Of a stretch of DNA of 64,000 nt, positions 2,446 through 27,400 are shown piece after piece. The notes under the pieces are model-generated. The model made no database searches, had not been told where the DNA came from, and saw nothing but the letters and a program-made list of their open reading frames with translations. The stretch spans positions 196,044,001 to 196,108,000 of the forward strand of contig CM097882.1 in the NCBI GenBank assembly GCA_044892505.1, given 5' to 3'. Both the position numbers and the translations under genes were made by a program. Positions within the stretch are counted from its first letter, which is position 1. Each line of letters opens with the position of its first letter. The DNA comes from Schmidtea nova. Lineage: Eukaryota.

Positions 2446-2473
2446 TTTCCCATATTATTTAATAATAAATTAC

Positions 2474-3926: not shown

Positions 3927-3930
<4 letters not shown>

Positions 3931-3998
<68 letters not shown>
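3931..3998. repeat. (TA)n microsatellite
   Basis: Direct reading. Confidence 0.95.
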
Positions 3999-4004
<6 letters not shown>

Positions 4005-4338
4005 AAAATTATATATAAATAATAATCATTTATGACCCATGGATAAGTTTTTCAAAAATATTCTTGACATCTGACGTTTTAGATAGTACAATTTAGATAT
4101 TTATTTGACCCATGGGAGATATTTTATACACGCCATGGGTTAGTGCTATACGCAGATTTAAAGTTACCTGTGTTACACAATGGCCTTAATGTGACATTTG
4201 TTGTTTTATGTATTTACAAGATAATATAGGTGTGAATTTATTCAAGTGTTACTTTACAATAATTAGACATGATTTTTGTGACATTTTCATTAAAAATATT
4301 GGAGACACAATATTTAATAGATAAAATTAAATTTCATT

Positions 4339-4589
4339 AACTATACTTTGGTACTCAATCTAAATTACTCAGTACTCAAAATAAAAAGGATAGTAATTAA
4401 ATAATTTTAAAATAATATTAATTAGAATGTGATAAAAATGAAAATAAGAAATTAATAGAAATATGAACTATACTTTGGTACTCAATCTAAATTACTCAGT
4501 ACTCAAAATAAAAAGGATAGTAATTAAATAATTTTAAAATAATATTAATTAGAATGTGATAAAAATGAAAATAAGAAATTAATAGAAAC
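4339..4589. repeat. Tandem duplication, unit about 128 bp, two copies
   Basis: AACTATACTTTGGTACTCAATCTAAATT...AATTAATAGAAA is repeated twice. Confidence 0.9.
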
Positions 4590-5478
4590 ATCAACGGTTG
4601 ACTAAACTCAGCTTTTAAGTATATTTCTATTTGCAAGATTTTCTAACAAAATTGTCTATCCAATGTGTTAATAATTAATAGAAATTTTCATTTTTGTAAC
4701 AAAATATAGAACATGTTTTGTTTAAATAAAAATATTTTTTAATTTATATTAAAATTTATTCTTTAATTGACAAATAATACCAAAAAAATCAACTAAACTC
4801 TAAATTATTGATAAAACCTAGGTCAAAGAATTATTAGAAATCCTTTTAATTATTTCCATTAAGAGTGCTCGAAAGAAAATGTCATAAATTAAATAAATGT
4901 TTGATCTTAAATATATTTAATAAATTTATTAGATTTTACAGTAAATTTTAGCAATTTAGTTCATTTATTAGTATTATGAATAAATTAAATGTTTTAGTAA
5001 ATTTGTATCTCTTCTTTTATTTTTAATTGATTTTGGTCTTTTTATTTTCGTTTCAATATTATCATTGACATCCAACTACTAAAATCATTTATTTATTTTT
5101 ATAAATGATATTTTACATAAAAAAATTAAATTTAATAAAGTTTGTGGATATCTTTTTATGATTGTCTTTTATTCGCTTGTTGCTATATTAAATTTTGTTA
5201 GTTTGCCATGGCATTTTAAGAGATGGAATGTAAATCCCTTGAATCATTATTGTAAAATTGTTAAATATTATTTTAGTCCATATTTTTATTTTAGTTATAA
5301 AAACCCGTGGGAAACTGCGGTTTATGTAAGAGTTTTAATAAATTTTTAATTTCGCATTTTCCTATCATGATATTTTAATTTAAAATTTTGTAAACTCACT
5401 GATTTCACTTCTTCAAAGCTTTATTATTTTATTTTATTACTGAATTTGAAAAAAAATTTATGAATTCTTGTTATTTAG

Positions 5479-8129
5479 GAAGTAGATATACAGAGACATG
5501 GTGATCGTGGCAGACTTACGTCAGAAGAATTTGTGAATGTTTTTAAAGAAATTTCGACTCGTCCTGAGATTTTTTTTTTACTTATAAGGTATATAAATAT
5601 TTTTAAAAAATATTTTTAAAAATTACAATATGAAACATTACGTATTGTATAAAAATATTCATTTGTAATAAATGGCTAGTAAATAAACAAAATTGTTTAT
5701 GCGAAATATAGTAGGTAGATGTGTGGAGCCGGGAACAAAGACATTATGACTCATGCGTGGGCGGAAAAAAAAGAACAAAGACCCCCCCCCTCCCCCCCGG
5801 GGGGGGGGTAGAAATTTTTTTTTTGATGAGTCATCGATGAGTCATCGATGAGTCATCGATGAGTCATACTTTTTTTTTTTTTTGATGAGTCATCGATGAG
5901 TCATAATTTTTTTTTTTAAAAATTTTTTTCACGCCAAATTTTTTTTTTCAAAAATTTTTTTACGCGCCAAATTTTTTTTTTTCAAAAATTTTTTTCGCGC
6001 CAAATTTTTTTTTCAAAAATTTTTTTCGCGCCAAATTTTTTTTTTCAATAATTTTTTTTCGCGGCAAATTTTTTTTTCAAAAATTTTTTTTCGCACCAAA
6101 TTTTTTTTTTCAAAAATTTTTTTACAATTTTTTTTTTTCAAAAATTTTTTTTTTTTTTAGGCCAAAATTTTTTTATACTAATTTTTAAAGACGATTTTTT
6201 TTTTTTTTTAAGATAAATTATTTTTGGTTAAATTTTTTTTAAAAGACAAAATTCGAGTAATAAAAAATATTTACAACAGGTGTGCAAACAAAGACATTTT
6301 TATATGTGTGCATGTTTAATTAACTATTATTTGTCAAGTATGAAGCTTTTGCACTTCAAAACCATCACAGAAGAGGTTCTGCTTCCAGGGTTCTGATCGC
6401 AATGTTCTGCTTCCAGGGTTCTGATCGCAATGTTCTGCTTCCAGGGTTCTGATCGCAATGTTCTTCTTCCAGGGTTCTGATACTAAATGTTCTGCTACAT
6501 TTAATTATTATTTTTTCAAACTAAAGACATTGCAACACGTGTGCAAGTTAACAAAGACATTGCAATACACATGCAACATGAACAAAGACATTGCAACACA
6601 CGTGCAAGGACTTTGCAACACGCGTGCAACATGAACAAAGACATTGCAACACACATGCAAACTAAACAAAGACACATGTGTGCAACACATAAACAAAGAC
6701 ATTAAAAAAGACAAAATTTATTTATAAATATATCGTNNNNNNNNNNNNNNNNNNNNNNNNNNNNNNNNNNNNNNNNNNNNNNNNNNNNNNNNNNNNNNNN
6801 NNNNNNNNNNNNNNNNNNNNNNNNNNNNNNNNNNNNNNNNNNNNNNNNNNNNNNNNNNNNNNNNNNNNNNNNNNNNNNNNNNNNNNNNNTAATTACTTGT
6901 AANNNNNNNNNNNNNNNNNNNNNNNNNNNNNNNNNNNNNNNNNNNNNNNNNNNNNNNNNNNNNNNNNNNNNNNNNNNNNNNNNNNNNNNNNNNNNNNNNN
7001 NNNNNNNNNNNNNNNNNNNNNNNNNNNNNNNNNNNNNNNNNNNNNNNNNNNNNNNNNNNNNNNNNNNNNNNNNNNNNNNNNNNNNNNNNNNNNNNNNNNN
7101 NNNNNNNNNNNNNNNNNNNNNNNNNNNNNNNNNNNNNNNNNNNNNNNNNNNNNNNNNNNNNNNNNNNNNNNNNNNNNNNNNNNNNNNNNNNNNNNNNNNN
7201 NNNNNNNNNNNNNNNNNNNNNNNNNNNNNNNNNNNNNNNNNNNNNNNNNNNNNNNNNNNNNNNNNNNNNNNNNNNNNNNNNNNNNNNNNNNNNNNNNNNN
7301 NNNNNNNNNNNNNNNNNNNNNNNNNNNNNNNNNNNNNNNNNNNNNNNNNNNNNNNNNNNNNNNNNNNNNNNNNNNNNNNNNNNNNNNNNNNATAATATCA
7401 ACTTATAAAAAATAACTTATAAAAAGAACTTATAAAAAGAACTTATAAAAAAAGTAAAAATATTAACATATAAAAAAAAAATAAAAAAATAATAAAATAA
7501 TTCATTAGTTTTAATTGATTGCGCAATTTATTACAATCAAAATGTATTGGCCCTAAAGAGGACCATTATTTCGTTCACATTCTGTTTATTGGTTACTGAA
7601 TATTTTCATCATTTGTTTCTGTTTATTTTCCTCATTGGTTTTAGAATATTTTTTCATCATTTGTTTCGGATTATTTTTTCATCATTAGTTTCGGATTATT
7701 TTTTTCATCATTTTTTTTTTTTTTTTTTTTTTTCGGATTATTTTACATCATTTGTTTCGGATTATTTTTTCATTATTTGTTTCTGATTATTTTCATCAAC
7801 ATTTGTTTCTCTTTATTTTCATCAATTGTTTTGGATTATTTTCATCATTTGTTTCTGTAATCTTTTTTCTTCATCTGTAAGCTAAAATTTAGTAATATTT
7901 GTTTACAATCATAAATTGTGGCCCTGAAGAGGGCCGATTGTTCATTCACATATCTTTTTGGTTTTCTTTATATCTTTTTTTTTTTTTGAATTGTTCGGTT
8001 TAATCTTTTTTTTGATTTTTTATATTTCTTTTATATTTTTTGTCATTATCCTCATTGTCATCTTTATCCTCATCCGAAGTAGTCCCGAGCAGTCGGATCG
8101 TAGAAATCATAAGGGTCATCAGACGGACC

Positions 8130-8188
<59 letters not shown>

Positions 8189-11100
8189 CTGATCCATCAT
8201 CACCTACAAATATAGTGGTGTCACCCCCCAGATAGTGGCCATACGCCAAACTTTTATTTTTTTCCACCCAGTTCCTCTTATCGTCCCTACAAGATAAGGC
8301 TCTCTTATTGCTTTTTATACTAAAGAGCTGGTGATTTTTGCTCGTAATGCGGAACTGGGGGACATTATATATTTTATCGTTTAAAAAACAGTCAAGGTAA
8401 GACTGGTGTGTGAGACCTGCATCTTTCAAACAGATACCCTTGGCTTTCATGCAGGCCTCGTCTCCCATAAGACTATAGCACTTAGGTCTTAAGAAAACCC
8501 ACTCATCATACAGTAGACCCTTATTCTCATCCTTAAATTTGCCAATCACAGAATCAAGGGTCCTACTATACAATGCATGATGAGTGTCGTAATTAGAGGT
8601 ATCCAAAAGCCTATCGTCAATCATTGCGGTCAAAAGAGTGTTCAAGTCAAGATTTTTGATTTCCAAGAAGAAGGAATCAGTATCCCCAGCAACGATGTTA
8701 ATTTCGCAGTTGAAGTCGTTACGATATTTTTGTAACTCTTCATACTGCAGCTGGTACATACGAAGTTTGGATAAATCCAGTACGGTTTGTCCAATGTAAC
8801 TGGGTCTATCCAAACATACTGATTCCTTCTGAAGCAATACGGAGATGAGGTCATTGTCGATTTTTGTAGTTTTTTTGAAATTAGCTTTTGACGTGTAAGT
8901 CAGCAGTTTTTGTGCCGAGTTACACAGTCGTAAATTAATTCTTTTTTTTAAATTCTCTACGGTTTTGCCGTAGAGACTATTATTTAATAATTTATAAAAG
9001 TTCTTATCGAGCTTATTTGTAGATGCAGCTCGTAAGTCTGTGTTTATTTTTATATAATTATAAAAGATTTTATTTTGTGTAAATTTAATAGCGCGATGTA
9101 TGTGCGTTACCTTCACACCAATTTGAATAAATAGTTGCAGAAGCCGCCAATGAAGAACATAATTCTTCTTTGGAAGATGCGTTAGCAACAGCTTCTCAAC
9201 CTTGGATCCCGGTGCACACATCTTTTCAGCGGCAACTGGAAGATCATCCAGTTTGTCGTGAATCGATGCCGGAATTTCCAAATCCACTTCTATGGTGTAA
9301 CCATAATGAAGTGTATCGAGATTTTCCGATGTGCACTCACAAACGATGTTATTTAATAATTGGTCATCAGTGACCCACTCAAAATTACCACAAGGAAGGG
9401 GTTGGCTTAAGGCCCACCCATATAAATTATTTATGTCAATATATAGTAATGCGGTATCCGGGCTCGTCTTGACATAATGTTTATTGACAAACGTTAGTCC
9501 GCCGCGAATACCGCCCTCGAAAAAGTTATACATCTCCATATCGGTGAGGAGCTCGATAGGAGAGTCAAGAGTTAATAAAGCGGAACTCCACGACATGCCG
9601 GGAATTCCGAGAAAATTTAAAGGCTCAAGCCTGTTATGGTTAATTGATTTTAATCGAAATTGCTGAAAATAATCAGCTAACAAAAACACATCCAATTTTA
9701 GATAAACCATCATGTAATCGTACAGTGATGTACATGATGTTTCTTGCCATATTTTATGGGCAGCAGCATACTCGACAGCAGTTATATCTTTCCATTTCGG
9801 GGGTAAACACAAGGTTGATTTTAAAACTTCTAAAGAAGTGGCAGCGTCATAAGGAAAAATGCCCTTGGCAGTGACTATAGTGCCTCGAAATTCAGATTGT
9901 GTTAATGGTAAGCTAGTGAGTGTTTTTACTGCATTATTTAGAGACTCACTTACAAACTGATAAGAGTCAATAAATTTTACGGTCAGGCTATCGATGTACG
10001 CGAAAAGACTTAAAAACTTTTCACTAGTCAATGGAATACAACTAATATTCCAACTGTTATATTTGGAAAGACCATATTTTAAAATATGGTGTAAATCGTA
10101 ACCCTTCAAGTTGTGAAAGATTACGGGCAAAGAGTGTCGTATTTGCCGGGACTTGTTACATTCTGAGCAGGCTGCTCCAATATAAAGACCGGTGAAATGG
10201 TCGTGATCCCTAACAGGCGCAACTAAAAGTTTTTTGCATAAATAACAATTAGTGCTATTATCAAATTGTCGCTGTTGGGTCGCAGTGATAGTCATACGTT
10301 TTTGATAATTTTTATAATAATAGGGTGTCACTATATACCGACTGATTGACTCAATTTCTCTTAAGAATTGATCAACACCGTCTAACCCTACAAAAGATTT
10401 GTAAATTCTCACCCCAGAAAAGTTGTTAATGAGAAGGAGACCTGCGGCAATAGGAAGATGTTTTTGGTGGTGAACAGTGTCTTTCGGTAATATTGCCTCG
10501 AAATCTGCATATATTACGAAAGGAGGAGTTACTGTTTTCTTCCAATCAGTAAACTCCAAAAATTTATTTTTGGGTAAGGTGTACAGTGTAGTACCCAACT
10601 GATTTTTGTTACAAAGACCCTTATGACGATTAAAGGCTTCGTCATTCCTAAACCCATTCAAGCAACGAGGGCACCATTGACTACAAATCCTAACTGGGGT
10701 GATTGTGCTGTTTCGGCAATTCAAAAAGCGATTCAGATCGGTAATCGCAAGATAATGAAAATTATCTTTTTTCTCCAAAAGAAGCAAATTTATGGGAATA
10801 GCCCCGACTACTTTACTACGGTAGACTATATCGATAAAGGGATGTTTAAGAACGACATTATCATCATTGTCATTGTCGCTTACATCTATTTGGGCCTTTT
10901 CGTCATATGTAAGGACATTAATACTATAGCCACTGTTTTGTCTCTCAAATTTTTTGATGTTAACTAATTTCATGGGCATGTCGGTGGGGTCAAAAACAAG
11001 TTGGGAAAGATCATAAGAAGTAGTCCTATGCCTGTATTGGCGTTCAATACTATTATATTTAACTACTGCCAAGAAACTGTAAAGAAAGCAATAGGTGTCA

Positions 11101-11686
11101 TTATTTTGGACATTTACAAGGCAACTTAAATTTCTTAAAGTATTCGGCGTCTGGATATAACTGCTGCCGCTCAATCGACTAATTTCCGAAAATTTAGTGA
11201 CTAAAAAACTAATATATTCTATTTTAGAGATTGTCCAATTACTCCCCTTTTCGTTAATCTGGACAATCTTCTCATTTAAATTAGTGACACCTTCCTCAAT
11301 AAAGGTATCACTCCACTCTCTGGCAGAATTTGAGATGACGAAAGATTGTAATTGATCATCTTTCTCAAATTCTACCTTGAGACAAAATTGTATTTTAACT
11401 GATTTTAAATTAATAATATATGATTTTAATTTATCTACTAATATATCAGGTACAGAGACCGTTTTTAATAATAAGTTAGATACATCCATTTTTATAATAA
11501 AATGGGTATCGTTCAAGTCGGAAGTAACTTCAACAATACCCATTCCAATTTGATTATTATTATTATTTAAAATATTAACATAATCGTCAAATTCATCATC
11601 ATTGACGATTATGTCAGATATAATATTCATATTACTACTTTTATTATAAATAAGATCATCCTCATCATCACTGATGAGGGATATAA

Positions 11687-11753
<67 letters not shown>

Positions 11754-12097
11754 ATTAGAAATATTATTTTCATCTTCATCATCGCTGATGTCGATGATGA
11801 TCAGTTTTTTAGGAACTGAATCCGTTAATGTTGTATTTTTACGTTTATTATTTAGTTTTTGTAAAGTATTATTATTTTGTAGAATATTATTTTGTAGATT
11901 ATTATGATTAAGTGTATTATTTAGATTAAGTGTATTATTATTATTATTATTATTATTATTTGTATTTTGTAAATTATTTGTATTTTGTAAATTATTTGTA
12001 TTTTGGAAATTATTATTTATATTTGTATTATTTTGTAAAATATTTCTATTATTTGTATTTGGATTTTGTAAATTATTATTATTATTATTATTAATGG

Positions 12098-12148
<51 letters not shown>

Positions 12149-15100
12149 GGTTGTTATTAGTAATATAATTTTTATATAAAGAATTAAAAAGAGATTTTTT
12201 TGAAGGTTGGAATTGGGAAAGATGAGTCCTATGAGAAAGGTAAAATTCCTTATAAGATTTAACTTCAATAATTTTACATTTTGGGCAGAGGAGGTGGGTG
12301 ACACCATTATATTTATAGGTATAGTACTTTTCCATAATGACATGACAGTCATTATGGAAACGACTATTACAAAAATTGGTATATGTTAAACCTGAATATA
12401 TGGAAAAAATTAAAATATAATTTAAATAATAATTATAATAATTATAAAAAATAATATCATCATCAATATTCTTTTTATTATTATTAATATAAAATAATTC
12501 CTAATTAATATAAAAGTTTTCATCATTATTTCGTCATATTAGCCTTCTTTTTGGACATTAAACAAAAAAAAATATTATCATCTAAATCTGTCTTGTTTAT
12601 CTTGGTAATTTACCTTTTAACTTATTAAGTAATTGTTTTAAATATGTTACTTAATAAGTTAAAAGGTAAATTAATATAAAAATTAATATAAAAATAATAT
12701 AAAATTCAATATAAAATTCAATATAAAAATAATATAAAATTCAATATAAAATTCAATATCAAAATTCAATATCAAAATATTTTTCATTATAACGTTAATT
12801 ATTCATAAAAAATAAAATCTTCATCATTTCATATTATTATTGTTCATCATTATTTCTTCATCATTCTTTGTCATAATAATAATAATTCAGCTTCTTCATT
12901 TCGTCATAACAAATTCTGCATTTCATATAATTATTTCTTCATAATATTCTTGGTCATAATAATTCATCTTATTCATTTCATAATAACAAATTCAACATAA
13001 TATCCTTTTAACTTATTAAGTAATTGTTTTAAATATTTTACTTAATAAGTTAAAAGGTAAATTACTATAAAAATAATATAAAAATAATATAAAATTCAAT
13101 ATAAAAAAAAAAAAAAAATCAATATAAAATATTTTTTCATTATAACGTTAATTATTCATAAAAAATAAAATCTTCATTATTTCATATTATTGTTCATCAT
13201 TATTTCTTCATATTATTCTTTGTCATAATATTAATTCTTCTTCTTCTTTATTTCATCGTAACAAATTCTGCATTTCATATAATTATTTCTTATGTCACTT
13301 CATTTCATAATAACATCATAACAAATTAAACATAATAATTTCATTATTTTTAAAAGTTATTATTATTATATTAAAAGATTTAATTAAAAAATATTATTAT
13401 TATTATTATTATTATATAAATAAATAAGAATAAATTACATTTAGAGTTTTTAAAACTCTGTCCATTCAGTTTCATGGCATCATCGTTACTCGGGACATCA
13501 TTCATAATAATCGGTTCATTTAAAATCGTCTCATCGGCATCCATATCTACAGCATTCATATTTTCTAAAAAATAATTTAACAATAATGAAAATTAAAATA
13601 TTATTAATTTTACTGATAATTCTTTTCGTATTTCCAAGTCCACTTGAGGTTCCGGCCATATTGATCGATAAATTAACACCTAAAAAAAAAAAAGATTAAT
13701 ATAATTAAATAAAAAAATAATAATTTTACTGTTAAGGCCTCCCGCGATCCGCTTCGATTTATTAATATTTGATAAATTATTCATATTTAGAAAATTTCTT
13801 GAAAATTTTTGATAGATTTAAAATTTGAAAGTAAAAAGTGACGAAATAATTCAAGTATATACTATATAAAGGTGAATTTTATTAACCGACCAATCAGAAT
13901 CGAGATAGGATAGGCAAATACATGCACACATACTGCACACATAATATATCTTTGTTTATGTGTGTTTGACGTCACGATATTGCTTTGTATCGTGACAAAG
14001 ACATGACATGTGCTTATCACGCATTGATCACGCACTGGTCATGCCTTTGTGATGAAAATAATAATATTTATAATTAATAATAATAAAAATAATAATTAAT
14101 AAAAATAATAATTAATAAAAATAATAAAATAATAAAATACATTTATTGCTTTAAATAATCAACAACAGCAGACAAGCACCCTTTATAGGCACACATGCAA
14201 TGATCTTTATAGGGACATGAAATGTTTTCAGGAACATATTCAACATCTTTATAATTATATTTAATTAATCTTAATTTGGGGAAATACTTCTTCAAAACAT
14301 ACATCTTTTCATTATCGGTAACATAGAAAATAGCTCCTTTATCTGTAATATCATCCATTATACATTTTGGGCAAAAATAATCTTGTCCTTCAAACGATTC
14401 TATACGATCAGGCCATAAAGATAAATCACTGTATATATAATACTGAGGTGTGAAAATATTATTGACATTCATAATACATAATTCCTTAATTGTTGTTCCA
14501 CCCATTTCATTATATCCATAAAAATCGATAAAATAACAAGACATTTTTTCAAATAAAGTTTATTAAAATAAATTGTTTATAACATTGATTTCAACCATGC
14601 AAGGCAATGTTCACCACAAGTGATTGTTAAAGGATGCTGATACCGAATTCTATTATACACAATAGGTTTACCGATAGTTTGTAGTTTTCGAACAAGTAAA
14701 TTCGGATAATAATATCCAAAGGGATCAAATACATGTATTCGATCTGGTTTCACATAAACTGCAATCCAATGTTCACCGCCCAACGTAGATGTCTGAGTAT
14801 TTACAATGATGGCTTGATTCATTTTCAAATAAGGTATTTTATCGAGAGGAAATACTCCAATAAATTGATTTCCCAATAGTTTTTTACCTTGTTGTAATAC
14901 CTGAAAAGAACTATTTCAAAATAAATAACTAATCAATTAAAAATCTTACTCCATAATAATAATAATAAAAATAATAACTTTGATCATTTATACTGTTTAA
15001 GCTTTGCTCAAAATACAAATGTTTAAGCTCAAACCAATAATGTTTGAGCTCTGCTCAAACCAGTATTGTTCGATTGGCAGTAATTTGAACTTCATTTTCA

Positions 15101-18100
15101 AAAACTCCATAAATAACTACATGAACCGGTTCATCAATAGGTTTGGCAAACTTTATATCGAGTCGTAAATTTCCGTTTTGAGGGATTTGGCTTTGATTCA
15201 AATCAAAATCGGGAGCCAGAACAAATGTAAAGAATGGATAACTAGATTTAAATTCATCTAGACCAATACCACAATTCAAGTTTTTATCCAAATAACCTAG
15301 ATTTCGGACAAGACTTTGCATATATGATGCACTAAAATTATCATTTTCAAAATCCTGGGTATATGTTTCACGATAATCGGTATTTTTCGACAATGTTAAT
15401 GAAGTCACATTAAAATGTTTGAATGTTGATGTTGACTCGGTATAAGACCCATTATATTGATTTTCAGATTGAAAAGCCACAAGAATGAAATTAGGCATTC
15501 GTCTATCTCCAAATATTTGCTCCTTGTAAAATGACGATGCCCCTTTACCGATAGCAAACGATACGATTTCTTTAGATTTTAATGGATAAATTGCATGTTT
15601 TTTATTTAAACCAATTTGATGACCGGCCAATACTGAAGAATCACATCGAACTCTTCTTACCATTAATTTTGCATCAACTATTTGGATAACTGGTTTCCCA
15701 GCTGCAGATTTCAATGATAATGCAGAATCAGATCGCTTCAATCTAATATGTACATTAACTCCGGGAAGTAAGTATTTAGGTTGATCCATAAAATCCAGTT
15801 GTAATGACGAACACATGTTGAAAAGTTTAGATCCCTTTATCCATTTTTTCCGATCGTCGGCTGAACCATATCCCATTGGAGTAAGACACGTTTCTTTAGC
15901 ATCATTCGTATAATTTAAAATAGTTTCGATTATTGCCTTGTGTGCATATGTATTGTTTCCACCCTCGATTTTTATATTATTAAATCCGAGAATTACATCT
16001 TTGAAAAGTGTATGAAACAAATAATTATTGGGAACTACATCACTCACATCAGCTAGAGCTTTTTTATCTTTATCTACAACCTTGATTGTAACGGACAATA
16101 ATGTATCGTTCAAATCCAAATATTCGGTTTGAGAACCATTAATGTAAAATTCAACATCATTTCTACTATCTGTAATTGAATTCATTGGAAACACATCTTC
16201 AAACGCCCCATATTCAATAACTGCTTGAGGTGATGGTCGATCAAAAAGACATAATTCAGATTTACCGCAAATCATTCTTCAAATATAGTTCCATGACCTT
16301 TCATTCGTTTGTTTATACGTTTTCGTTTACGTCTTGGTCCTACCGGTACAGATTCCGGTTCCTTATTTTTTGTAAACATACTTGTAATTGTAGGAAGCAT
16401 TTGTGTTACAGCAGGTATAGCTTTATTAACTGCGGCCAAAGCATTGGTTTTCAATGACGGTAATATTTTATTATCTTTCATGAGAACGTCCTTGGCAGTA
16501 TTCATTCCGAAATTACCTAGTCGTCTAAGAATTGGAAGTGCAAATCTCCCAATAGTTTTCAACCAACCTGATCCGTACTGTTTACCGACAAAATACGGTA
16601 ATTCGCCACCAGTTTGGCTATCACTGTACATTGAAACTATATCGGGATTACTCATCGTTTTTTCGAAAATGTAGAGTTAAGTGAGTTTTTGAATCTTTTG
16701 GAAATTTTATAAATCTTCCACTGTCATCCCGGATATTTATTTCTATATTGTTTATACAAGATGTTGAAACAGGTAAATACATTGGATTTTCAACTTGTAT
16801 TTGAACAATTTCATCTGGCTCGTATTTTTCAATCCATACCGATTTTAGTAAAGGAACCAAGGAATCACCAACAATAATGGGTTCGATAATGTTTGTATAC
16901 ACGAATAATTGCTGATGAAGTTTAGATATTTTCGGTTGACGAACACCAGAAATGATATTTTTATCGGTAAATGTATCCTTATCTAATCCCAATGTATTGA
17001 CCAAGTATTTATCAAATCTGACTTTATTGATTTTTTCTTTGAGTTTGAATTTGAACAATTTATTTAATTCGACAACTGTAAAAATATCCGAACAATTATC
17101 GCTAATATATTTCTGTAATTCATCTAGATGCGTTATATACAACTCCTCCTTGAAGGTGAATACATGTCCTTCTTGACGATCATACGATATAGTAAAAGTA
17201 ATTATTTCTTCATCGTTACTGGCCAAGTTTTGCATAACTTTGAATTCACATTCTTCTTCATTACATTTTATTGTCAGTTTATTACTTCCCATTCGTTTTG
17301 CTACATCAAGATCGTTAAATGTAATTGTATAAGGAACAACATTACACGTGAGAATTATTTTTCCACTTCGTTGCCACATTTCGATATCCGGATCAATTGT
17401 GTGAGTTGGAACATTCAGATGACCACTATTATTATATATCGAGAAAAATGCATTTGCAACAATTGTTTTCGTAATATAGTAATATATTTTACAATAACTA
17501 TAAAATGGAAAAGGTTGGTAAACAAATGTAAAATCCATTAGAGCAACTTCCCAATTTCCGTTTAAATAAATTGGATTAGGTAAATTCACCATGAATTTAC
17601 TTGCGGTATTATCCGGATGGATATTCGGACAACTATTGCTCGGTAAAATAGTGTAAAAATTCACTTTACTAGATTTTTTGACGAGATCCATGATGGTTCT
17701 TTATATCCATGCCATTTAACATAGTATTGTTTATCCTTACCCACCATTTTAGTCTTCAAAATCTTTTGAATTCTAAATATCGTAGGTTTAGGAATAACTT
17801 GTAATTCTTGTTCGTAGAATTTGCCGCTGATTATATTGTTATCAGAGTCACGAATAGTATACATGACAGGATTCTGCACTGTGTTGACTTTCGATATTTG
17901 ATATACCTCATCACTCCAATTATTATCAAAATTTTTAACGAATGGCGATGTACTAATCTTGCTAATTCGAACATGATCATCAACTTTATATTTTGGTTTC
18001 TTTACTTTCACTTCACTCACAATATTTTCAGTATCAACTACTTCTGCCGGTTTCCTGCCATTTATACCCCGATGAGCACTATGATTATAACTATGAATCA

Positions 18101-21100
18101 ATTGAGGTAAGACATTAATCCAGGTTTTATTGCCTTTAAAAACAAAGTATTTTTTCAATCGATCACGCAAAGTTCGATTAAATCTCTCGACATGAGCGGC
18201 TTTGAATTGTGAGAATACCGAATAATGATTTATTCCCTTGATTACTTCCTTGACTTTACTGTTGTAAAATTCCTTTCCTAAAAAATATTAAATTTATAAA
18301 TTTAAATTAAAATTTACCCAAATCCGTTTGTAAATTAGTTGGCCGATCCTTTTTCATCATTGTCTTGATAGCAATTGCCATATCATTAGCAGATTTTGAT
18401 TTTACTCCAATTGCTCGAGCAAATCTACTGTAAACATCAATACACGTTAAAATATACTTGTACCCCTTGTTAATTTTGGAATACGGAATCATTTCCATCA
18501 AGTCCATTTGCCACAAATCATTGATTCTATATGTTTTATATGCTCGAGTTGGAAATCGTTTCAACATCGGCTTGTTTAGACTGTATGCAAGTTGCCCCGA
18601 TAACCAACTTTGTGTCTGTTGTTTCGACTTCTGTGCTTTTTTCCTTAGCTTTTCGACTCCACCGAAACCGGCGTCGTCTTTTGGGTTCGTCCAGATCTTC
18701 TCCATTGCAACAAGAAGATTTAAAGTTTAAATTTAAATTAGGTAATGATTGACCCATTGTTTATGACTTTCTTTTTCCCAATAAACCAGCACCTCCCAAT
18801 AAAGATAATGCTAATGGTAACAATGCTGCAATAAAACCACCTTGTTGTTTATATATTACTTTGCGCATAAGTTTTTTATTTTTTGAGTTTACTAGCGACA
18901 ACAATGGTTTTTTATGTTTGTTCAAAACACGGCGATTAGATGGAGTTAGATTTATTTTACCTCGCACGACTTTAATTAAAATAGAGAGTAAATCATCGAT
19001 GACGTAACTAGGAAACGATTGAAGAATACCCATTCTTCTAACGGAAGGGGCTTTAAGTAATGCATTAAAAAACGGTAAACTACGATGATGTGTTTGTTTA
19101 GCATTAGATTTCAAATTATTTTTGGGAATATTATCCATAAGTATTTTCTTGGATTTCTTTCTTGATTTCTTTATAGATTTCTTTGTAAATAGTTTCTTTG
19201 TTTTCTTTCCCGCTTTCTTTGTTCTAGCCTTTATCAATGGCTCAAACTTTACTCGAGATTTCATTAACATGATTACGATTGTAAACAGAATTAACTTTGT
19301 TTATAAACCATGGCTCCTTCAGGGTTAAAAATATCAGTTCTAACGCGTAAATCATCACTGCATTGTTGAGTAAAATCCAGGAAAATATATCCATGAGGAG
19401 ATTTTGTAGCATCTTGAAAGGCTTCAATCAAAAAGTTACGATTAGAAGGATAAGCTTGTCTTGCCAGAAAATCAATAACTGTTGCATCTCTAGGATTTTT
19501 AAAAACAACAAGATATTGAACATTTAAATTACGAGTTCGATGACTACCGCCCTGATGAAATAAATTCTGAGTTATAAAAATAACAGTAACACCTTTATGT
19601 CTACTGATTTTCGTAAATAAGTTATTGAAATCCTTTTCTTTATTTGCTTCTTGATACAAGTCGTCAATGATAATCACATCACCATGTTTTAATCTAGATG
19701 ACCAGTTTTTATCGAAACCTTTAATGATTGTCATTTTTATTTTACAAAACTGATCTTGTGTCATTCCACTTTCGTCGTCAGCTCCCCTATGCCAATAAAT
19801 ATTATTAAATTTTGACTTGAATAATTTCGATTGCAATAATTTACAAACAAATAAAGTTTTTCCACTCCCGCTCGGACCAACAATTTGAAACACTGCATCA
19901 TTTCTTAATTCCATATTTAAAACTTATATTTTGTTAATATTATTGTTTATATTTGTTTTAAATACCTGTTCTCAAAGTAATTATTTCATTTAAAAATATT
20001 TTCAGTAATGATTAGAAACATTAATTACAAAGGTAAGACAGATGTATCACACATGAAATTTCCAAATGGAAAACCCCAGCAAATTGTAGATCGAAGTGGG
20101 AAATACCCAATAATATACTTTAAATCAGGAAGATATAGAATAATGGGATGCAGAGAATTTATTAGTGACGAACAAGTTGAGTTTTACGATTTAAAGATAC
20201 AATCGATAACTGTAACTGCGGATTTAGGATTTATTTGTAATTTGAATGAATTATCGAAATTAATACCGTGTGTTTACGAGCCAGAATTATTTCCAGCTTT
20301 GAGATATATCAAATATAATCCCATGTGTGTAAATATATTTACAAGCGGGAAATTAGTCATATTAGGATTAAAAAACAAAGACTATAGTACTATAGTTGAT
20401 GATATTATTTACGATATAAAATCAATTATAGAAGATAAAGCCTTTGTTGATTTCATACTAACATGTGACTCATGACTGCAATATCGATGCATTAGAAATG
20501 CACGATTCTGATTGGCTCTGTGTGTATCGATAGAATAAAGACATGTTGTGCATGCTTCATTCTGATTGGTTCATTATGTGTGTTTCAAATCATGTGTGTT
20601 TCTTTGATATATATACTATGAACAATCTCACATAGTTTATATTCACAATTATGTCGATGACCCAAACTTTAATTAAAAGCCGTAAGGATTTTAATTTTTA
20701 ATTTTTCATATTTTATATTATTATTATTTTAGATAAATTAATGAACGTAATATATCGCAAATTGGAGGAGCTGTTCCCGAACCTGATGCCTGCTCTGGTC
20801 TACACGGCTCCTGAGATGTTCCCGTACAAGATTATGGTCTTGACGGGAATCGACATCAATCAGATTGTGCTCGATCATATGACGAGCCAGAATACGGATC
20901 TCCCAATGGTACCCGAGCACATTATGTGCGCTTATCAATGCGGGAGCTGCGTGGAAAGAATCCGGCAGTTTAATATCTGGGTTTTGAGGAATTCCCTCAA
21001 ACTCTATGATGTTCAACAAATGGACAAAATCGAGGAGGAGGAGCAGGAGGACCAAATCAAGGAAACATGGCCCAACTCAACTCCGGAGCCGACTGATGAA

Positions 21101-21245
21101 ACAACAACAACAACAACAGAATTGGAAGCACCAACTCTAGATGGTCCGTTTCCATCCGATGAATCCAATGATTGTATGGAATCGCCACAATCACCGGATT
21201 GTGCAGAATGCCATCGACAAGCTGATGGTGGTGATAATGAAGAAG

Positions 21246-21278
<33 letters not shown>

Positions 21279-24200
21279 AAGAAAACGCAGAACAATGATT
21301 TGATGTGTGTTTAATGTATTTAGTTTTTTTTTCATTTAGTTTTTAGTTTTGTAATTTTAGTTTTGTCATTTTAGCTTAATACAAGTTTATTATTCATTTT
21401 AGTTTTCATTTATTTAAATATTAATAGTTTATCTTTTATTAAATCATTTTTTTTTTTTATTTTTTTTTTTTAATAGTAGTAGTAGTAGTAGTAGTATTTT
21501 ATTAACTGTATATAAAAAAAGTAAATAGTTTTTATTAAATAATAATTAGTAAGAAATTGTTTTATGTAAGATAATTATAATTATAATAATAATAATAATT
21601 ACGAAATAAACAAATAAGTAAATACATTAGTAGCAGAACATTGCGAACAGAACCCTGGACGTAGAACTTATTCTGTGATTGTTTTTATATGAAAAAGCTT
21701 CATAATAAATAATTAAAACATGCATGCATACAACAAAGACATTGCAATACATGTGCATACTGTGTGCAAAACAAATGCATGAATACGATTGGACAAAGAC
21801 ATCCAGTCATCAGTATAAATACAAAGACATTTTATAAAATATTGTCACTATTTACAACATGCAATCACGAAAACAAAATTTGGATATAAGCGAAGAAAAA
21901 ATATATCAGACTGAGGTAAAACCAGTTCAGATGTACTATGACAGCCGACTTTATTTTTTGGTTAATGAAATACCGTATCGATTATCATATCCGGTAAAGT
22001 TAACAAAATCTTTATATGATAGTCTTGCTGTAATTATTGCCAAGGAAGATATTATCGCATTAAATCGAATATTTTCAAAGATGAATGTTAATTTGACATG
22101 TAAAGAAACAATGTACATCAATAACAGAAAAACTCGGTTTCATGATGCTTTTCAAACTATTGATTTCATGGATCAAGAACACTGGTTCGTTACAGTTATT
22201 ATTCAAGGGTACAAGATTGATAAAAAAGATGTTGTTACTCCGATTTGGAGAGTTGACAATGCAAGATACGCATAATTGTTTTTTAATAAATATTTTAGTA
22301 TGAACAAATTTAGTTTTTATATTAGTTTTTGTTTTTAAAATGAAATTAATTATAGTTATTTTATTATTATTATGTGTTGACAATACTGAAGGAGAACAAG
22401 CTTTGGAGGATTGTCAATCATCCCATCCGTTTCGAAAACAAGATAGTACTTGCGCGAGTTATAACGATATATGTCTTTACTCAAACATTGAATGCAATCA
22501 AATAAAATTACAATGTAATCAATGTCCTTCCAAAAATAATGTGATTAATAAAGATATTGAAAAAATGATTGACAAAATAATGATGAAAATAGTTGAACGA
22601 TTAAAATGTATAAATCAAACTATTGTTAAAAAAGAATATGAAGTCAGATATCAAAATCAAACAGTTGAAAACGAAAAAACATCAATTGTTTTACATTATA
22701 TAAGTTTATTTATATTAATAATTATACTGATGTTATCGGCATCCATACGGCTGGAGAAGATTTCAAATATTCCAAAGAATAATATTCCGACAAATACTAG
22801 TATTCCGATGAATAATATTACAATGAATAATATTCCGATGAATAATATTCCGAGTAACAATTCAGATGTAAATAATTTTGAAACTAAATTTTGTACACGT
22901 ACACAACGATATATTTATAAATAAATTTTGTCTTTTTTAATGTCTTTGTTTATGTGTTGCACGCATGTGTCTTTGTTTAGTTTGCATGTGTGTTGCAATG
23001 TCTTTGTTCATGTTGCACGCGTGTTGCAAAGTCCTTGCACGTGTGTTGCAATGTCTTTGTTCATGTTGCATGTGTATTGCAATGTCTTTGTTAACTTGCA
23101 CACGTGTTGCAATGTCTTTAGTTTGAAAAAATAATAATTAAATGTAGCAGAACATTTAGTATCAGAACCCTGGAAGAAGAACATTGCGATCAGAACCCTG
23201 GAAGCAGAACATTGCGATCAGAACCCTGGAAGCAGAACATTGCGATCAGAACCCTGGAAGAAGAACATTGCGATCAGAACCCTGGAAGCAGAACATTGCG
23301 ATCAGAACCCTGGAAGCAGAACATTGCGATCAGAACCCTGGAAGCAGAACCTCTTCTGTGATGGTTTTGAAGTGCAAAAGCTTCATACTTGACAAATAAT
23401 AGTTAATTAAACATGCACACATATAAAAATGTCTTTGTTTGCACACCTGTTGTAAATATTTTTTATTACTCGAATTTTGTCTTTTAAAAAAAATTTAACC
23501 AAAAATAATTTATCTTAAAAAAAAAAAAAAATCGTCTTTAAAAATTAGTATAAAAAAATTTTGGCCTAAAAAAAAAAAAAATTTTTGAAAAAAAAAAATT
23601 GTAAAAAAATTTTTGAAAAAAAAAATTTGGTGCGAAAAAAAATTTTTGAAAAAAAAATTTGCCGCGAAAAAAAATTATTGAAAAAAAAAATTTGGCGCGA
23701 AAAAAATTTTTGAAAAAAAAATTTGGCGCGAAAAAAATTTTTGAAAAAAAAAAATTTGGCGCGAAAAAAAATTTTTGAAAAAAAAAATTTGGCGTGAAAA
23801 AAATTTTTAAAAAAAAAAATTATGACTCATCGATGACTCATCGATGACTCATCAAAAAAAAAAAAAAGTATGACTCATCGATGACTCATCGATGACTCAT
23901 CGATGACTCATCGATGACTCATCAAAAAAAAAAATTTTTCTACCCCCTCCCCCCGGGGGGAGGGGGGGGTCTTTGTTCTTTTTTTTCCGCCCACGCATGA
24001 GTCATAATGTCTTTGTTCCCGGCTCCACACATCTACCTACTAAATATAATAAATCAATAAATTTCATATTAATAATTGTATGATTATAGATCACGAACAT
24101 TTTTTGGTTGTTAGGTACACGATATTTTAGCATAGCCTTTATACACAGTTGATACATTAAAATTAAAAAAATTGATCTATAGTCATACAATGCTTATTGT

Positions 24201-24361: not shown

Positions 24362-24437
<76 letters not shown>

Positions 24438-27400
24438 TGGGCACACATTAAATATATTAACCCTAAAGATAGGTAATGAACAAAAAACGTTAAATATATA
24501 TACTTAGTTAACAATTTTAAGTAATTTAACTTCATTAATTCATGAATTTTTCATTATAAAATTAAAGAAATACCAACATGAAGTCGTTTTATAAAAGTAA
24601 TTGAGAAAGTTTTTAAGTATATGAGTAGCTAGAAGGGTGCTCTTTGGCTCAAGACGGAATGACTCATCGATAAGGCAACGAGTCATTATGTTGATTCATA
24701 CATCTGATAGAAGGTGAGTCAGGCTACAAGATTATGGGTCATAAATTTTGTATGACTTATGGTCTTTGTTCTATAAAGCGCAAAAATGGTCCTGTCAAAA
24801 ATATCGATGACTCATCATTTTTATAACAAAGAACTTTTCAAAAAATCTTTATCTTTTTAGTTCCCCATGAAATCTTTTAATTTTTCAGAAATCGAATTAA
24901 AAAGTTTCTTTGTATGAGTCATGTATTTAGTATGACTTATCATTTTTCGAAAATCTTTTGAAGTCCGTTTAACAAAGACCTTTTTTCAAAATTTTTCTAT
25001 GTTGAAACAAATTCATGACTCATACAAAGAAAACTTTTATTCGATTTTTGGAAGAATTCAAAAATTTCACGGTGGGGGCACTAAAAAATTTTTTTTGAAA
25101 AGTTCTTTTTTTATAAAAATGATGAGTCATCCATATTATTACCACTTTTACACTTTATAGAACAAAGATCATGAGTCATACGGTCGGCTATGACGCATCA
25201 TCTTATAGCCTGACTCACCTTCGTCGATGAGTCATTTCGTCTTTAGCCAAAGAGCACTCTTCTCACTACTTATATGAATTTTGTTGGGCCGCATTAAAAG
25301 CCGTCCTGGGCCGCGGGATGGACACGCTTGTTTTAAATGATCTTATCAGTTGTTTAATTTGTATTATTTTGCAATGTCTTTTTACGAACTCACACATTTT
25401 AAAAGTTAAGAACTAGTTTCATATTATAAATACCAACGGAATGAGATAAAGTAAAAAACGAATTTTGTTTGTCGTATAATTTTATTAAATAACAATAAAA
25501 AAATTTCATCGATATAAATAATTTTGACACTTAAATTGTTGGATTGCGGAACCTTCTGTAATGTGGATACGGAATTATTCAGTGTTTCAGCAATAGTAAT
25601 TCACTATTGAAATATCTTATGAAAAATATGTACTAAAAAATTTAACGAAAAAATTCTATCAGTGGCACACTTTTTTATAAATTGTTCCGCAGGTTGAGTG
25701 TTAATGTAAAATACAGTATGAATTAAATATTATACTATTAATTTAATTAATGTTTATATTTATTTATTATAGAATCAGGCGCATGTATCTAAACTAGCAT
25801 AGCTCAGCCAATTACACCCTCTTTTAAAATATGCAATAAAACTGTCATGTATATTTATATGGTAACATTTTCGTACTATTTTATGTCTTTAAGTCAGTTT
25901 TTATATGGTCTTAAAAATCAATTGGAAGCAAATATGAAATTGAGTGCTTTGGAAATAGATTTTATCTTATTGTAGTTTAATTAGTTAAGCCCTCTAAATT
26001 TAGTGTTTTTTATTTTATATATTTATAAGTAACATGCAGCGGCGTATTTACCTGTATGCAGATTAGGCATTTGCCTAGGGCCTCGGATTTATAAGGGCCT
26101 CCAAAATACAAAAAAAAATTATAATTTTTTTTTTAAAAAAAAACAATAGTCGTAGCATTTTACATTTTAAACTTTAACAGTTTTAAAATTTTCAGAGTTT
26201 AAAACCTTTTGGGGCCTCAATTTCAATTTACAAAATAAAATTAGTAGGCCTTTACAAAATAAAATATATGATATACAAAATATTGCTTGGATGTTGCTTT
26301 TTTCCTTTTTGAATATGTTCAAATTCTTTTACTTATAAGAATTTATAAGAAAAAATAACAAATAGGATAAAAGCAACATCCAAGCAAGGTTTGAATTTTT
26401 ATATTTTGAATATAATATATTTTATTTTGTAAAGGCCTACTAATTTTATTTTATAAATTGAATTTGAGGCCCCAAAAGGTTTTAAACTCTGAAAATTTTT
26501 AAACTGTTAAAGCTTAAAATGTAAACTCTGAAAAATTAAAAAGAAAAATAATAAAATTATTTTTAAAAAAAAAACAATAGTCGTATCATTTCATATGCAA
26601 TTTCATTTCATTTATTGTTTGAATTTTGTTACGTTAACATCAAATTTTCGTTGCATGATTTTGAATATTGCAAATAAATATTTGTACGTATTGATTATTA
26701 GCATAATTTTGATTTTAGATTGATATTTTCCGAATAACCAACAGTTTTTTTTAAAACTACCAAAACCAATCGTTGTTGCTTCTTGCTTTCGTCATTTAAT
26801 ATTTCATAATTCACTCGACAATTATTCCATTTTATTTTTTTAAAAAAATATTGACAATTATACGTTAAAATGAAAAGAACTTTCGAGTCTGGCGCACAAA
26901 AACGATTGCGAAAAAAAATTCAATTGAAGGAAAACGAAAAGCAAAGAAACTCCCTTGCTAAATTTATGTCTTTGGATAAAAATGTTCCATCTACCAGTAC
27001 TGCGGCTGCAGATAAAACTGTTTCACTACCAGTAATAGCTGATAGCGATGTTAATCTTTCGATAAACAGTCTTTGTGCAGAAGTAGGTGCAAGTGATAAT
27101 TGCGTTGCCACTACCAATGACATTGAGGTTGAAATTGAGAGTGAAGTAGTAAGTACAAATACTTATCCTATCTTTACTGACATTGGTTTATGGCCAAAAA
27201 TAATTACTAATGATGTGATTAAACATTGTATCTGTATAAAACCCAAAAATGTGGGAGATTTAGAGTCTTCTAAAAAATGTTATAAAGATAACAATGATCA
27301 ACAAATATACCGAAAATTAAATGATGTACATTTTTATACGACTAAAATAAACGGAGTCCAAGAGCTAAGAGAATGGTTGATTTATTCTGAAACAACGAAA

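What the first reader, a model, noticed from the sequence alone, without database searches (positions are those of the whole stretch)
5825..5904. Helically phased AP-1 palindrome array near each terminus
Seen: CGATGA(C/G)TCATCG repeated with an 11-bp period (6 copies left, 8 right, plus one about 40 bp from each end). The same core recurs in the mini-element at 24624 and in the relic end at ~53240, so it is shared across diverged Polinton-type ends. Established: ATGA(C/G)TCAT is the optimal bZIP AP-1/GCN4 site. Inference: a stress or wound-responsive enhancer, which could also act on the host PLCL gene.
Basis: partly seen in the sequence, partly recalled or inferred. Interest (0 to 1): 0.7.

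Follow-up and report, generated by a model that had tools for sequence, protein, structure and literature searches.

The report
AP-1 sites at Polinton ends
The ends of a giant virus-like transposon sitting in an invertebrate gene are packed with textbook binding sites for the host's stress and growth switch AP-1, alongside other host-factor sites, which probably lets the element sense when its host cell is activated.

Summary
The motif is real. ATGA(C/G)TCAT occurs 25 times in the window (0.6 expected), and 24 of these lie at Polinton-type ends. Sixteen are in the ~1 kb inverted repeats of an 18.3 kb Polinton/Maverick (5710-24041), 7 in a gene-less 647-bp mini-element and 1 at a relic end. The 11-bp unit equals the published Jun-AP1 consensus. 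'Helically phased' holds only inside short blocks (4+2 left, 5+3 right). The blocks are about half a turn apart, the copy number differs between ends, and the mini-element's sites have no 11-bp period. The array is one module of a larger terminal control region that also has E2F-like and Sox/TCF-like site arrays. The element's genes run towards the ends, so the array is not their promoter, and no element-encoded bZIP was found. Best reading (0.6): host AP-1 binds the ends and acts for the element, as an enhancer and possibly as an aid to replication or integration, like baculovirus hrs and adenovirus ITRs. The sites are preferentially conserved between the arms of the gene-less mini-element, which hints at an end function. 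Nothing supports an effect on PLCL. Binding itself is untested.

The parts
5710..24041 (.). Polinton/Maverick element, 18,332 bp, AGTAG...CTACT termini, 6-bp target duplication AAATAT at 5704-5709 and 24042-24047
   Evidence: genes
5710..6736 (+). Left terminal inverted repeat (at least 1027 bp; cut by an N gap at 6737)
   Evidence: 9 mismatches and 3 gaps (14, 11, 84 nt) against the right repeat
22906..24041 (-). Right terminal inverted repeat (1136 bp as far as it can be paired)
5710..5727 (+). Terminal 18 nt, 16 of 18 identical to the relic end; candidate core origin / integrase site (inference)
5734..5742 (+). AACAAAGAC at nt 25-33; the surrounding 10-mer matches the listed Sox4 motif YCTTTGTTCC on the other strand; AACAAAG sits at the same position (nt 25-31) in the relic end; 8 copies per repeat
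5746..5754 (+). Single terminal AP-1 site, nt 37-45 (mirror at 23997-24005); a GC box follows at 5759
5825..5867 (+). Left AP-1 block 1: 4 copies, period 11
5884..5904 (+). Left AP-1 block 2: 2 copies, 26 bp after block 1 across a T14 run
5905..6151 (+). 31-33-bp repeat with six E2F-like TTTSGCGCSAAA sites (0-1 mismatch) in T-tracts; mirror at 23574-23821
   Evidence: 12 of 12 window hits lie in the two repeats, 0.44 expected
6376..6496 (+). 28-bp repeat (4.3 copies left, 7.3 right at 23146-23350); no factor assigned
6523..6700 (+). 31/53-bp repeat with AACAAAGAC and TTGCAA motifs; mirror at 22942-23119
23822..23852 (-). Right inner AP-1 block: 3 copies
23870..23923 (-). Right outer AP-1 block: 5 copies
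13830..14050 (-). Promoter-like segment upstream of the polymerase gene: CRE (TGACGTCA at 13967, the only one in the window), CTTTGT motifs, CCAAT and TATA-like boxes (inference)
21690..21860 (+). Promoter-like segment upstream of ORF 21859 with three CAAAGAC motifs, CCAAT and TATA-like boxes (inference)
24624..25270 (.). Gene-less 647-bp mini-element, AGTAG...CTACT ends, target duplication TATATG, long diverged arms; 9 exact and 7 one-mismatch TGASTCA, 6 CTTTGT motifs, no E2F-like array
53241..53295 (-). Relic Polinton end with AACAAAG at nt 25-31 and one AP-1 site at nt 47-55 (inverted relative to the main element)
5479..5588 (+). Host PLC-like (PLCL) exon, ending 121 bp before the element; further exons at about 29941-30007, 31443-31536 and 41242-41360

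Best explanation
The array is one module of a composite cis-acting control region in the terminal inverted repeats of a Polinton/Maverick. From the end inwards the modules are: a conserved 18-nt tip, a Sox/TCF-like site, one AP-1 site, a GC box, two tandem AP-1 blocks, six E2F-like sites, a 28-bp repeat, and more Sox/TCF-like and TTGCAA motifs, spaced by T-tracts. Shown: the motifs, their enrichment and position, their recurrence at three unrelated-looking Polinton-type ends, and their preferential conservation between the mini-element's arms. Inferred: host Jun/Fos/ATF-family dimers bind them (about 0.75). The bound factors and T-tracts would then open the ends. The region would work for the element, as a distance enhancer for its internal promoters (about 0.55) and/or as an auxiliary element that helps protein-primed replication or integrase access at the termini (about 0.35; the two are not exclusive). 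This would tie activity to cells with JNK/MAPK signalling and, through E2F, to cells entering S phase. The tandem form arose by slippage or unequal exchange of an 11-bp near-palindrome; site number, not precise phasing, is likely what matters.
For: 24 of 25 ATGASTCAT lie at Polinton-type ends, against 0.61 expected. The 9-mer occurs 0 times in the 11 non-Polinton repeat regions checked, and once in the twelfth region, the relic itself. The unit equals Jun-AP1 GATGASTCATCN (PMC7946360). The first site lies at nt 36-47 in all 5 ends examined, and AACAAAG lies at nt 25-31 in both main and relic ends, although the mini-element is not collinear with the main repeat beyond short words. Mini-element left half: 4 exact sites against 0.057 in shuffles, reached by 0 of 2000. 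Its arms are 36/36 identical within exact sites and 156/214 outside, block-permutation p 0.001-0.003 over four site definitions. Two further arrays match host-factor motifs: E2F-like, 12 of 12 hits in the repeats (canonical site and A/T flank preference in PMC4686757), and AACAAAGAC, 16 of 21 hits in the repeats (Sox4 motif in PMC11240583). No bZIP turned up in Pfam scans of 13 and 110 element frames or in pattern scans of all six frames. ORF 21859 folds like T7 gp2.5/Enc34/ASFV CP312R single-strand binding proteins (Z 6.8-7.7), not like a sequence-specific duplex binder. Genes diverge from 19914/20008 and run towards the ends. Precedents: baculovirus hrs carry CRE/TRE sites and act as enhancer and origin (PMC13513840); adenovirus ITRs carry a core origin plus host NF-I at nt 23-36 (PMC6410123).
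Against: No binding, chromatin or expression data. The two repeats are about 99% identical, so the perfection of the 14 tandem copies reflects youth, not selection, and left and right are one observation. Only three independent families of ends were available. The arm-conservation test leans on an alignment that anchors on shared words; other blocks (e.g. around CTTTGTTC) are also conserved; and the arms may have inherited their pattern from an autonomous parent. The relic has one site only, shifted by 10 nt and inverted, and its degraded sister region has none. The mini-element lacks the E2F-like array. ORFs 14143, 16272, 18761, 20741 and the N-terminal part of the polymerase have no assigned fold here and could bind DNA specifically; about 640 bp next to the left repeat is N. 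Z under 8 for the SSB match may be only a common fold.
Confidence: 0.6

Rival explanations
1. The repeats are secondary binding sites for an element-encoded protein (integrase, terminal-protein region of the polymerase, or an unassigned small ORF), and the AP-1 likeness is incidental or a by-product of a dimeric protein reading a palindrome.
For: Galileo's long internally repetitive TIRs hold multiple transposase sites in tandem repeats (PMC3688188 abstract). The gene-less mini-element keeps the sites, as expected for sequences needed in cis. The first site sits at a fixed distance from the tip. Several element ORFs are unassigned.
Against: The unit matches the extended Jun-AP1 consensus at 11 of 11 positions, and two more arrays match unrelated host-factor motifs. 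No bZIP was found in the element. Families whose end sequences are otherwise unalignable share the same 9-mer. Retroviral-type integrases mainly read the tip (recalled).
Confidence: 0.15
2. The tandem array is a neutral minisatellite grown by slippage from one chance or ancestral site; at most the single terminal site matters.
For: The repeats contain at least five tandem arrays. Left and right differ by whole units (11, 11+3 and 3x28 nt). The near-palindromic unit folds into hairpins as single strand (-21.8 and -36.5 kcal/mol, no shuffle control), which favours slippage during strand displacement. Assembly collapse of repeats is possible, as the region has N gaps.
Against: The mini-element reaches a higher site density (9 exact sites in 647 bp) without tandem structure and with different flanks, and conserves the sites between diverged arms. 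Three of the amplified units carry recognisable host motifs.
Confidence: 0.13
3. The array has been co-opted, or acts incidentally, as a stress enhancer of the host PLCL gene.
For: The element lies 121 bp into a PLCL intron, and the same 24.4-kb intron holds 23 exact 9-mers. MITEs spread bZIP and E2F sites near plant genes (PMC5950925).
Against: The insertion is young (about 99% repeat identity, intact target duplication), and the motifs are properties of the mobile family. The upstream exon is internal, so the promoter probably lies beyond the window start, more than 5.8 kb away (inference). In one animal studied, Polintons are piRNA-silenced (PMC8532177, planarian; the host here is unidentified). 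No expression data.
Confidence: 0.07
4. The selected motif is the junction palindrome TCATCGATGA (core ATCGAT, a CUT/ONECUT- or DREF-type site, labels recalled), not the AP-1 core.
For: ATCGAT abuts the AP-1 core in the array, in two mini-element sites and in the relic.
Against: ATCGAT is common in the window (41 hits listed, 10 of them in the arrays). The terminal site of the main element and 5 of 7 mini-element 9-mers lack it.
Confidence: 0.05

Closest known systems
Polinton/Maverick elements (polintoviruses)
   Same: Protein-primed polymerase B, rve integrase with chromodomain, A32-like ATPase, adenoviral protease, double jelly-roll capsid, long TIRs, 6-bp target duplication, AG...CT ends, 15-25 kb size (PMC8097293 and PMC6431247 passages).
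   Different: No description of AP-1, E2F or Sox/TCF site arrays in Polinton TIRs turned up in five searches. This copy also encodes a TBP-like protein and an SSB-like protein, and its integrase is in two pieces.
Baculovirus homologous regions (hrs)
   Same: Repeated palindromes with clustered host bZIP sites (CRE/TRE) that act as both enhancer and replication origin; strength correlates with site number (PMC13513840 passages).
   Different: hrs are dispersed in a circular genome, have about 72-bp units with a 30-bp palindrome bound by viral IE1, and carry imperfect CRE/TRE-like sites. Here the sites are perfect, terminal and duplicated by the TIR, and no viral transactivator is identified.
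Adenovirus inverted terminal repeat
   Same: Linear protein-primed genome with a conserved tip followed directly by host transcription-factor sites (core origin, NF-I at nt 23-36, NF-III/Oct-1) that raise replication (PMC6410123 passages). Here: an 18-nt conserved tip, a Sox/TCF-like site at nt 25-31 and AP-1 at nt 37-45.
   Different: Different factors; the repeat is about 1 kb against 116-209 bp; the element integrates; no replication role is tested here.
Galileo/Foldback long TIRs
   Same: Long internally repetitive TIRs with protein sites in tandem repeats (PMC3688188 abstract).
   Different: There the sites bind the element's own THAP transposase; here they match host factors, and the element is not a P-superfamily transposon.
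Plant MITEs that amplify E2F and bZIP60 motifs
   Same: Short non-autonomous elements that carry and spread host transcription-factor motifs (PMC5950925 passages), like the 647-bp mini-element.
   Different: Those derive from Harbinger and other cut-and-paste families in plants; this one has Polinton-type ends and 9-16 sites in one copy. Its copy number is unknown.

Membership tests
Polinton/Maverick (main element) | Protein-primed family B polymerase | tested here: met
   PF03175 E=3e-27 on 8181-10835; the full-length ORF gave no such hit
Polinton/Maverick (main element) | Retroviral-like integrase | tested here: met
   rve E=2e-8 at 18307-18705 and chromodomain at 17664-18287; the gene is in two frames in this copy
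Polinton/Maverick (main element) | Packaging ATPase and adenoviral-type protease | tested here: met
   Pox_A32 E=7e-7; Peptidase_C5 E=5e-6 to 8e-6, in a frame of only 112 codons
Polinton/Maverick (main element) | Double jelly-roll major capsid protein | tested here: met
   Model pLDDT 86.6; Foldseek E=1e-16 to iridovirus and PBCV-1 capsids, 3e-13 to mavirus
Polinton/Maverick (main element) | Single jelly-roll minor capsid (penton) | not tested
   ORF 16648-17691 is assigned from gene order and recall only; no Pfam hit
Polinton/Maverick (main element) | Long TIRs, AG...CT termini, 6-bp target duplication | tested here: met
   the ends read AGTAGG rather than the vertebrate (AGT)2 or (AG)3 motifs of PMC8097293
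Non-autonomous Polinton (mini-element) | Polinton-type tips and 6-bp target duplication, no genes | tested here: met
   AGTAG...CTACT, TATATG duplication, 12-13 of 18 tip positions shared with the main element
Non-autonomous Polinton (mini-element) | Ends alignable to an autonomous parent | tested here: inconclusive
   Only short words align to the main repeat; no other animal DNA was available
AP-1 (TRE) enhancer | TGA(C/G)TCA core with preferred flanks, above chance | tested here: met
AP-1 (TRE) enhancer | Bound by Jun/Fos-family dimers in vivo | not testable with these tools
   needs EMSA or ChIP
AP-1 (TRE) enhancer | Raises transcription at a distance, inducibly | not testable with these tools
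   needs reporter or expression data
Helically phased site array | All sites on one face of the helix | tested here: not met
   17 degrees drift per step inside blocks, about 171 degrees between blocks; no period in the mini-element
Baculovirus hr | About 72-bp units with a 30-bp EcoRI palindrome in a baculovirus genome | tested here: not met
   The unit is 11 bp and the context is a Polinton; functional analogy only
Adenovirus-type auxiliary origin | Host-factor sites beside a core origin that raise protein-primed initiation | not testable with these tools
   The layout is similar; function is untested
Structured RNA | Rfam family match | tested here: not met
   0 hits at gathering score in 5600-25400

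The most novel reading that the evidence does not exclude
Polinton ends in this animal use host AP-1, with a Sox/TCF-type factor, as an auxiliary origin or mobilisation factor in the way adenovirus uses NF-I and Oct-1. That would explain why even a gene-less mini-element keeps the sites. It would make wounding or JNK signalling plus S-phase entry the long-sought trigger for Polinton replication in animals, and it would make non-autonomous mini-Polintons vehicles that scatter dense AP-1 enhancers through the genome.
Probability: 0.25. Interest if true: 0.78.

Novelty: new variant of a known kind. Interest (0 to 1): 0.5.

Why it matters
What switches on an animal Polinton is unknown; as of the 2021 survey read here, particles and exogenous forms had not been observed (PMC8097293, abstract and passages). 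A readable set of host-factor sites at the ends gives a concrete, testable prediction of when and where to look for transcripts and free copies: AP-1-active, cycling cells. Host-factor sites in viral terminal repeats and in transposons are a familiar principle, so this is an extension to a new element class, not a new principle. It would matter more if the sites serve replication or integration, or if the mini-element proves to be high-copy.

Tried and rejected
(1) Independent Polinton ends: one genome-contig scan with the capsid alignment gave 3 loci from 90 pattern matches. L001 (12.7 kb) holds most core genes, but no terminus was recognised; its 3 TGASTCA are scattered; L002 and L003 are internal fragments with none. 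They neither support nor refute. (2) Host identity: the capsid search returned 147 relatives, with no organism names among the 120 listed. The PLCL exon matched invertebrate PLCL2 proteins at 65-83%, which does not name the host. A planarian host was considered and not established, so PMC10558129 (abstract only) was not used. (3) Element-encoded bZIP: none found; shadow frames wholly inside five core ORFs were left out of the 110-frame scan. (4) ORF 20741: no Atlas hit. ORF 21859: no hit in the word-indexed search, Atlas leads under 0.9 only, no Pfam family for the query and no PDB sequence match below E 0.5, no Foldseek match at E<=0.001. (5) Array as promoter: rejected because the genes run towards the ends and only 44- and 58-codon repeat-derived ORFs point inwards. 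(6) Structured RNA: none. (7) A left end or target duplication for the relic: not found. (8) CpG depletion: none in host or element (ratios 0.89-1.17, 1.89 in the first 450 nt of the repeat), so the CG junctions give no methylation argument. (9) PMC7778262 has no AP-1 mention. (10) PDB sequence searches with capsid and polymerase: 0 hits.
Full report
CONTEXT. The finding lies 116-195 nt inside the left end of an 18,332-bp element, 5710-24041. It has AGTAG...CTACT termini and a 6-bp target duplication AAATAT. The element encodes a protein-primed B polymerase (PF03175, E=3e-27), an adenoviral-type protease, an A32-like ATPase, an rve integrase with chromodomain and a TBP-like protein. It also encodes a double jelly-roll capsid protein (pLDDT 86.6; Foldseek E=1e-16 to iridovirus and PBCV-1 capsids). 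It is a Polinton/Maverick by the features given in PMC8097293 and PMC6431247 (passages). The integrase is in two pieces in different frames (18307-18705 and 17664-18287). The element sits 121 bp into a 24.4-kb intron of a PLC-like gene (exons); one exon matches invertebrate inactive PLCL2 proteins at 65-83% (20 of 22 candidates scored). The host species was not identified.

OBSERVATION. ATGASTCAT occurs 25 times in the window against 0.61 expected, and 0 of 100 shuffles reach that number. Seven lie in the left repeat, 9 in the right, 7 in the mini-element, 1 at the relic end and 1 elsewhere (40790). The full 13-mer is exact in 2 of 6 and 4 of 8 copies. The repeat unit is GATGAGTCATC, which is the HOMER Jun-AP1 motif GATGASTCATCN as printed in tables of PMC7946360 and PMC11240583 (passages). 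The left and right arrays are one observation, since the repeats differ by only 9 mismatches (7 of them in homopolymer runs at 5790-5816) and 3 gaps over 1027 nt.

PHASING. Within a block, successive sites turn by 17 degrees at 10.5 bp/turn, so neighbouring bZIP dimers would stand roughly parallel, 37 angstroms apart. That this is sterically possible is my inference from recalled bZIP geometry. Each array, however, is two blocks (4+2 and 5+3) separated by 26 bp, about half a turn at any pitch tried; overall coherence is 0.23-0.44 at 10.5 and 0.51-0.71 at 10.0. Copy number differs by one unit per block between the ends, and the 28-bp repeat differs by three units, the signature of slippage or unequal exchange; assembly error is also possible. 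The mini-element's exact sites are 17-107 bp apart. Phasing is therefore a local consequence of an 11-bp unit and not a conserved design.

THE ARRAY IS ONE MODULE OF SEVERAL. The order from the tip is as follows: 18 nt of which 16 are shared with the relic end; AACAAAG at nt 25-31 in both main and relic ends, where the main-element 10-mer matches the listed Sox4 motif YCTTTGTTCC; the single AP-1 site (nt 37); a GC box (nt 50); the AP-1 blocks (nt 117-195); six E2F-like sites at 31-33-bp spacing in T-tracts; a 28-bp repeat; and a 31/53-bp repeat with AACAAAGAC and TTGCAA. TTTSGCGCSAAA with up to one mismatch has 12 hits, all in the repeats (0.44 expected). PMC4686757 gives TTTCGCGCG as the canonical E2F4/DP2 site and reports a preference for A/T flanks, but finds GGCGGG cores preferred in its own assays (passages). 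AACAAAGAC has 21 hits, 16 in the repeats (0.94 expected). The labels GC box, CRE, CCAAT, TATA and C/EBP-like TTGCAA are recalled. Related motifs recur in two promoter-like segments inside the element: 13830-14050 on the minus strand, with the window's only TGACGTCA, and 21690-21860. The genes diverge from 19914/20008 and run towards the ends, so the arrays lie 3' of the genes. They can be an enhancer or an end element, but not a promoter for these genes; about 640 bp beside the left repeat is N and unseen.

INDEPENDENT ENDS. The mini-element is 24624-25270, with AGTAG...CTACT ends and a TATATG duplication, and no ORF of 100 codons or more. It holds 9 exact and 7 one-mismatch TGASTCA, against 0.14 and 1.6 per kb in the rest of the window. 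Its left half has 4 exact sites where 2000 shuffles give 0.057, and none reaches 4. Its arms are 73% identical outside exact sites (156/214) and 36/36 inside when sites are defined on the left arm, or 44/45 against 148/205 when defined on the right. Block-permutation p is 0.001-0.003 (terminal 18 columns and gapped columns left out). The caveats are alignment anchoring, other conserved blocks, and possible inheritance from an autonomous parent. The relic end has one site at nt 47-55, inverted; a degraded sister region at 49150-49600 has none. Of 12 other repeat regions checked, only the relic contains the 9-mer. A scan of prokaryotic genome contigs gave three Polinton fragments without recognisable termini, so nothing outside this window tests generality.

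WHO BINDS. No bZIP was found in 13 ORFs, in 110 frames of 40 or more codons, or by pattern in six frames. ORF 21859, present also in two relic copies, has 34 relatives and a confident model (pLDDT 92.7). Its best matches are ASFV CP312R (Z 7.7, rmsd 4.3, 123 aligned), DUF2815 (7.4), Enc34 SSB (7.1) and T7 gp2.5 (6.8); the Foldseek best hit is also Enc34 SSB, at E=0.02. It is probably a single-strand binding protein and a poor candidate for reading a duplex palindrome, though Z under 8 is not decisive. Other small ORFs and the integrase remain possible binders, as in Galileo (PMC3688188, abstract).

MECHANISM. Most likely (0.6), host AP-1-family dimers bind the ends and, with E2F- and Sox/TCF-type factors and nucleosome-disfavouring T-tracts (recalled), make the termini an activation module for the element. 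One output would be enhancer action on the internal promoters; another would be help for replication or integration at the tips. The baculovirus hrs combine both roles, with host bZIP sites whose number correlates with strength (PMC13513840, passages; Landais 2006 seen only as a citation there). Adenovirus ITRs place host-factor sites just inside the core origin (PMC6410123, passages). AP-1 motifs have been linked to viral and cellular origins on an unclear basis (PMC7523632, passages). A gene-less element has no use for an enhancer of its own genes, so its retention of the sites leans towards an end function or towards an element-encoded binder. Every step from motif to binding to output is inferred.

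PLCL. The insertion is young and the motifs belong to the mobile family. The upstream exon is internal, and I saw no earlier PLCL coding exons in 1-5478, much of which is a hAT transposon, so the promoter is probably outside the window. An effect is possible but unsupported (0.07).

NOVELTY. Searches for Polinton + terminal inverted repeat + AP-1 (1 paper, an apple genome, judged from the listing), Maverick/Polinton + inverted repeats + transcription factor binding + enhancer, the literal 11- and 13-mers, Polinton + TIRs + tandem repeats + non-autonomous and Maverick + promoter + reactivation showed no description of such arrays. These were judged from listings, with passages read for PMC8097293 and 10.1101/2025.02.07.637071. 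The library lacks most subscription papers, including the original Polinton and Maverick descriptions, and Repbase could not be consulted. No supplements were read, and bioRxiv supplements were closed; TIR annotations could be there. The principle is known from viruses and from plant MITEs (PMC5950925, passages). Verdict: a real feature, a new variant of a known kind, interest 0.5.

Noticed in passing
window 5905-6151 and 23574-23821: Array of six E2F-like sites per end at about three helical turns (31-33 bp) in long T-tracts. It is as striking as the AP-1 array and suggests coupling to S phase.
   Followed up: partly
window 21859-22275 (+), relic copies near 52768-53052 (+) and 49515-49817 (-): Unannotated ORF folds like T7 gp2.5/Enc34/ASFV CP312R single-strand DNA-binding proteins (Z 6.8-7.7); 34 relatives among cluster representatives. 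Whether a Polinton SSB of this type is already described was not searched.
   Followed up: partly
window 20008-20475 (+); L001 10252-10650: The element encodes a single-repeat TBP-like protein (PF00352, E=1e-13), also present at 38% identity in the related Polinton fragment L001.
   Followed up: partly
window 24624-25270: Gene-less fold-back mini-element with Polinton-type tips and a 6-bp duplication; arms about 77% identical; parent unknown.
   Followed up: yes
window 46690-53295: Degraded second Polinton: polymerase pieces at 47028-48490, an inverted duplicate of the subterminal region at 49215-50391, and a mariner-like insert at about 51500-52600 (label recalled). A possible left end lies near 46698, without a matching duplication.
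   Followed up: partly
window 5782-5809: C-run/G-run stretch between the terminal site and the array that can form a hairpin; differs between the two ends.
   Followed up: no
window 6376-6496 and 23146-23350: 28-bp repeat built from two related 14-mers, 4.3 versus 7.3 copies; no factor assigned.
   Followed up: no
window 8070-12335: The polymerase ORF has long Asn-rich and Gln-run low-complexity tracts and an endonuclease-VII-like zinc finger (PF02945, below cut-off).
   Followed up: no
window 22340-22924 (+): ORF with an apparent signal peptide, Cys-rich part and hydrophobic segment, ending inside the right repeat; no Pfam hit.
   Followed up: no
window 41241-41360: The PLCL exon reads ASYNT where active PLCs have SSHNT (recalled), in keeping with a catalytically inactive PLC-like protein.
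   Followed up: no
L001 (JANOGQ010000345.1), L002, L003: Animal-type Polinton fragments inside bacterial MAG assemblies, probably mis-binned eukaryotic DNA.
   Followed up: partly
window 155-1907, 26855-29356, 42124-46640, 54476-56837: Two hAT-like and two Gypsy-like elements in the PLCL introns (labels from reading the translations, not from a family scan).
   Followed up: no
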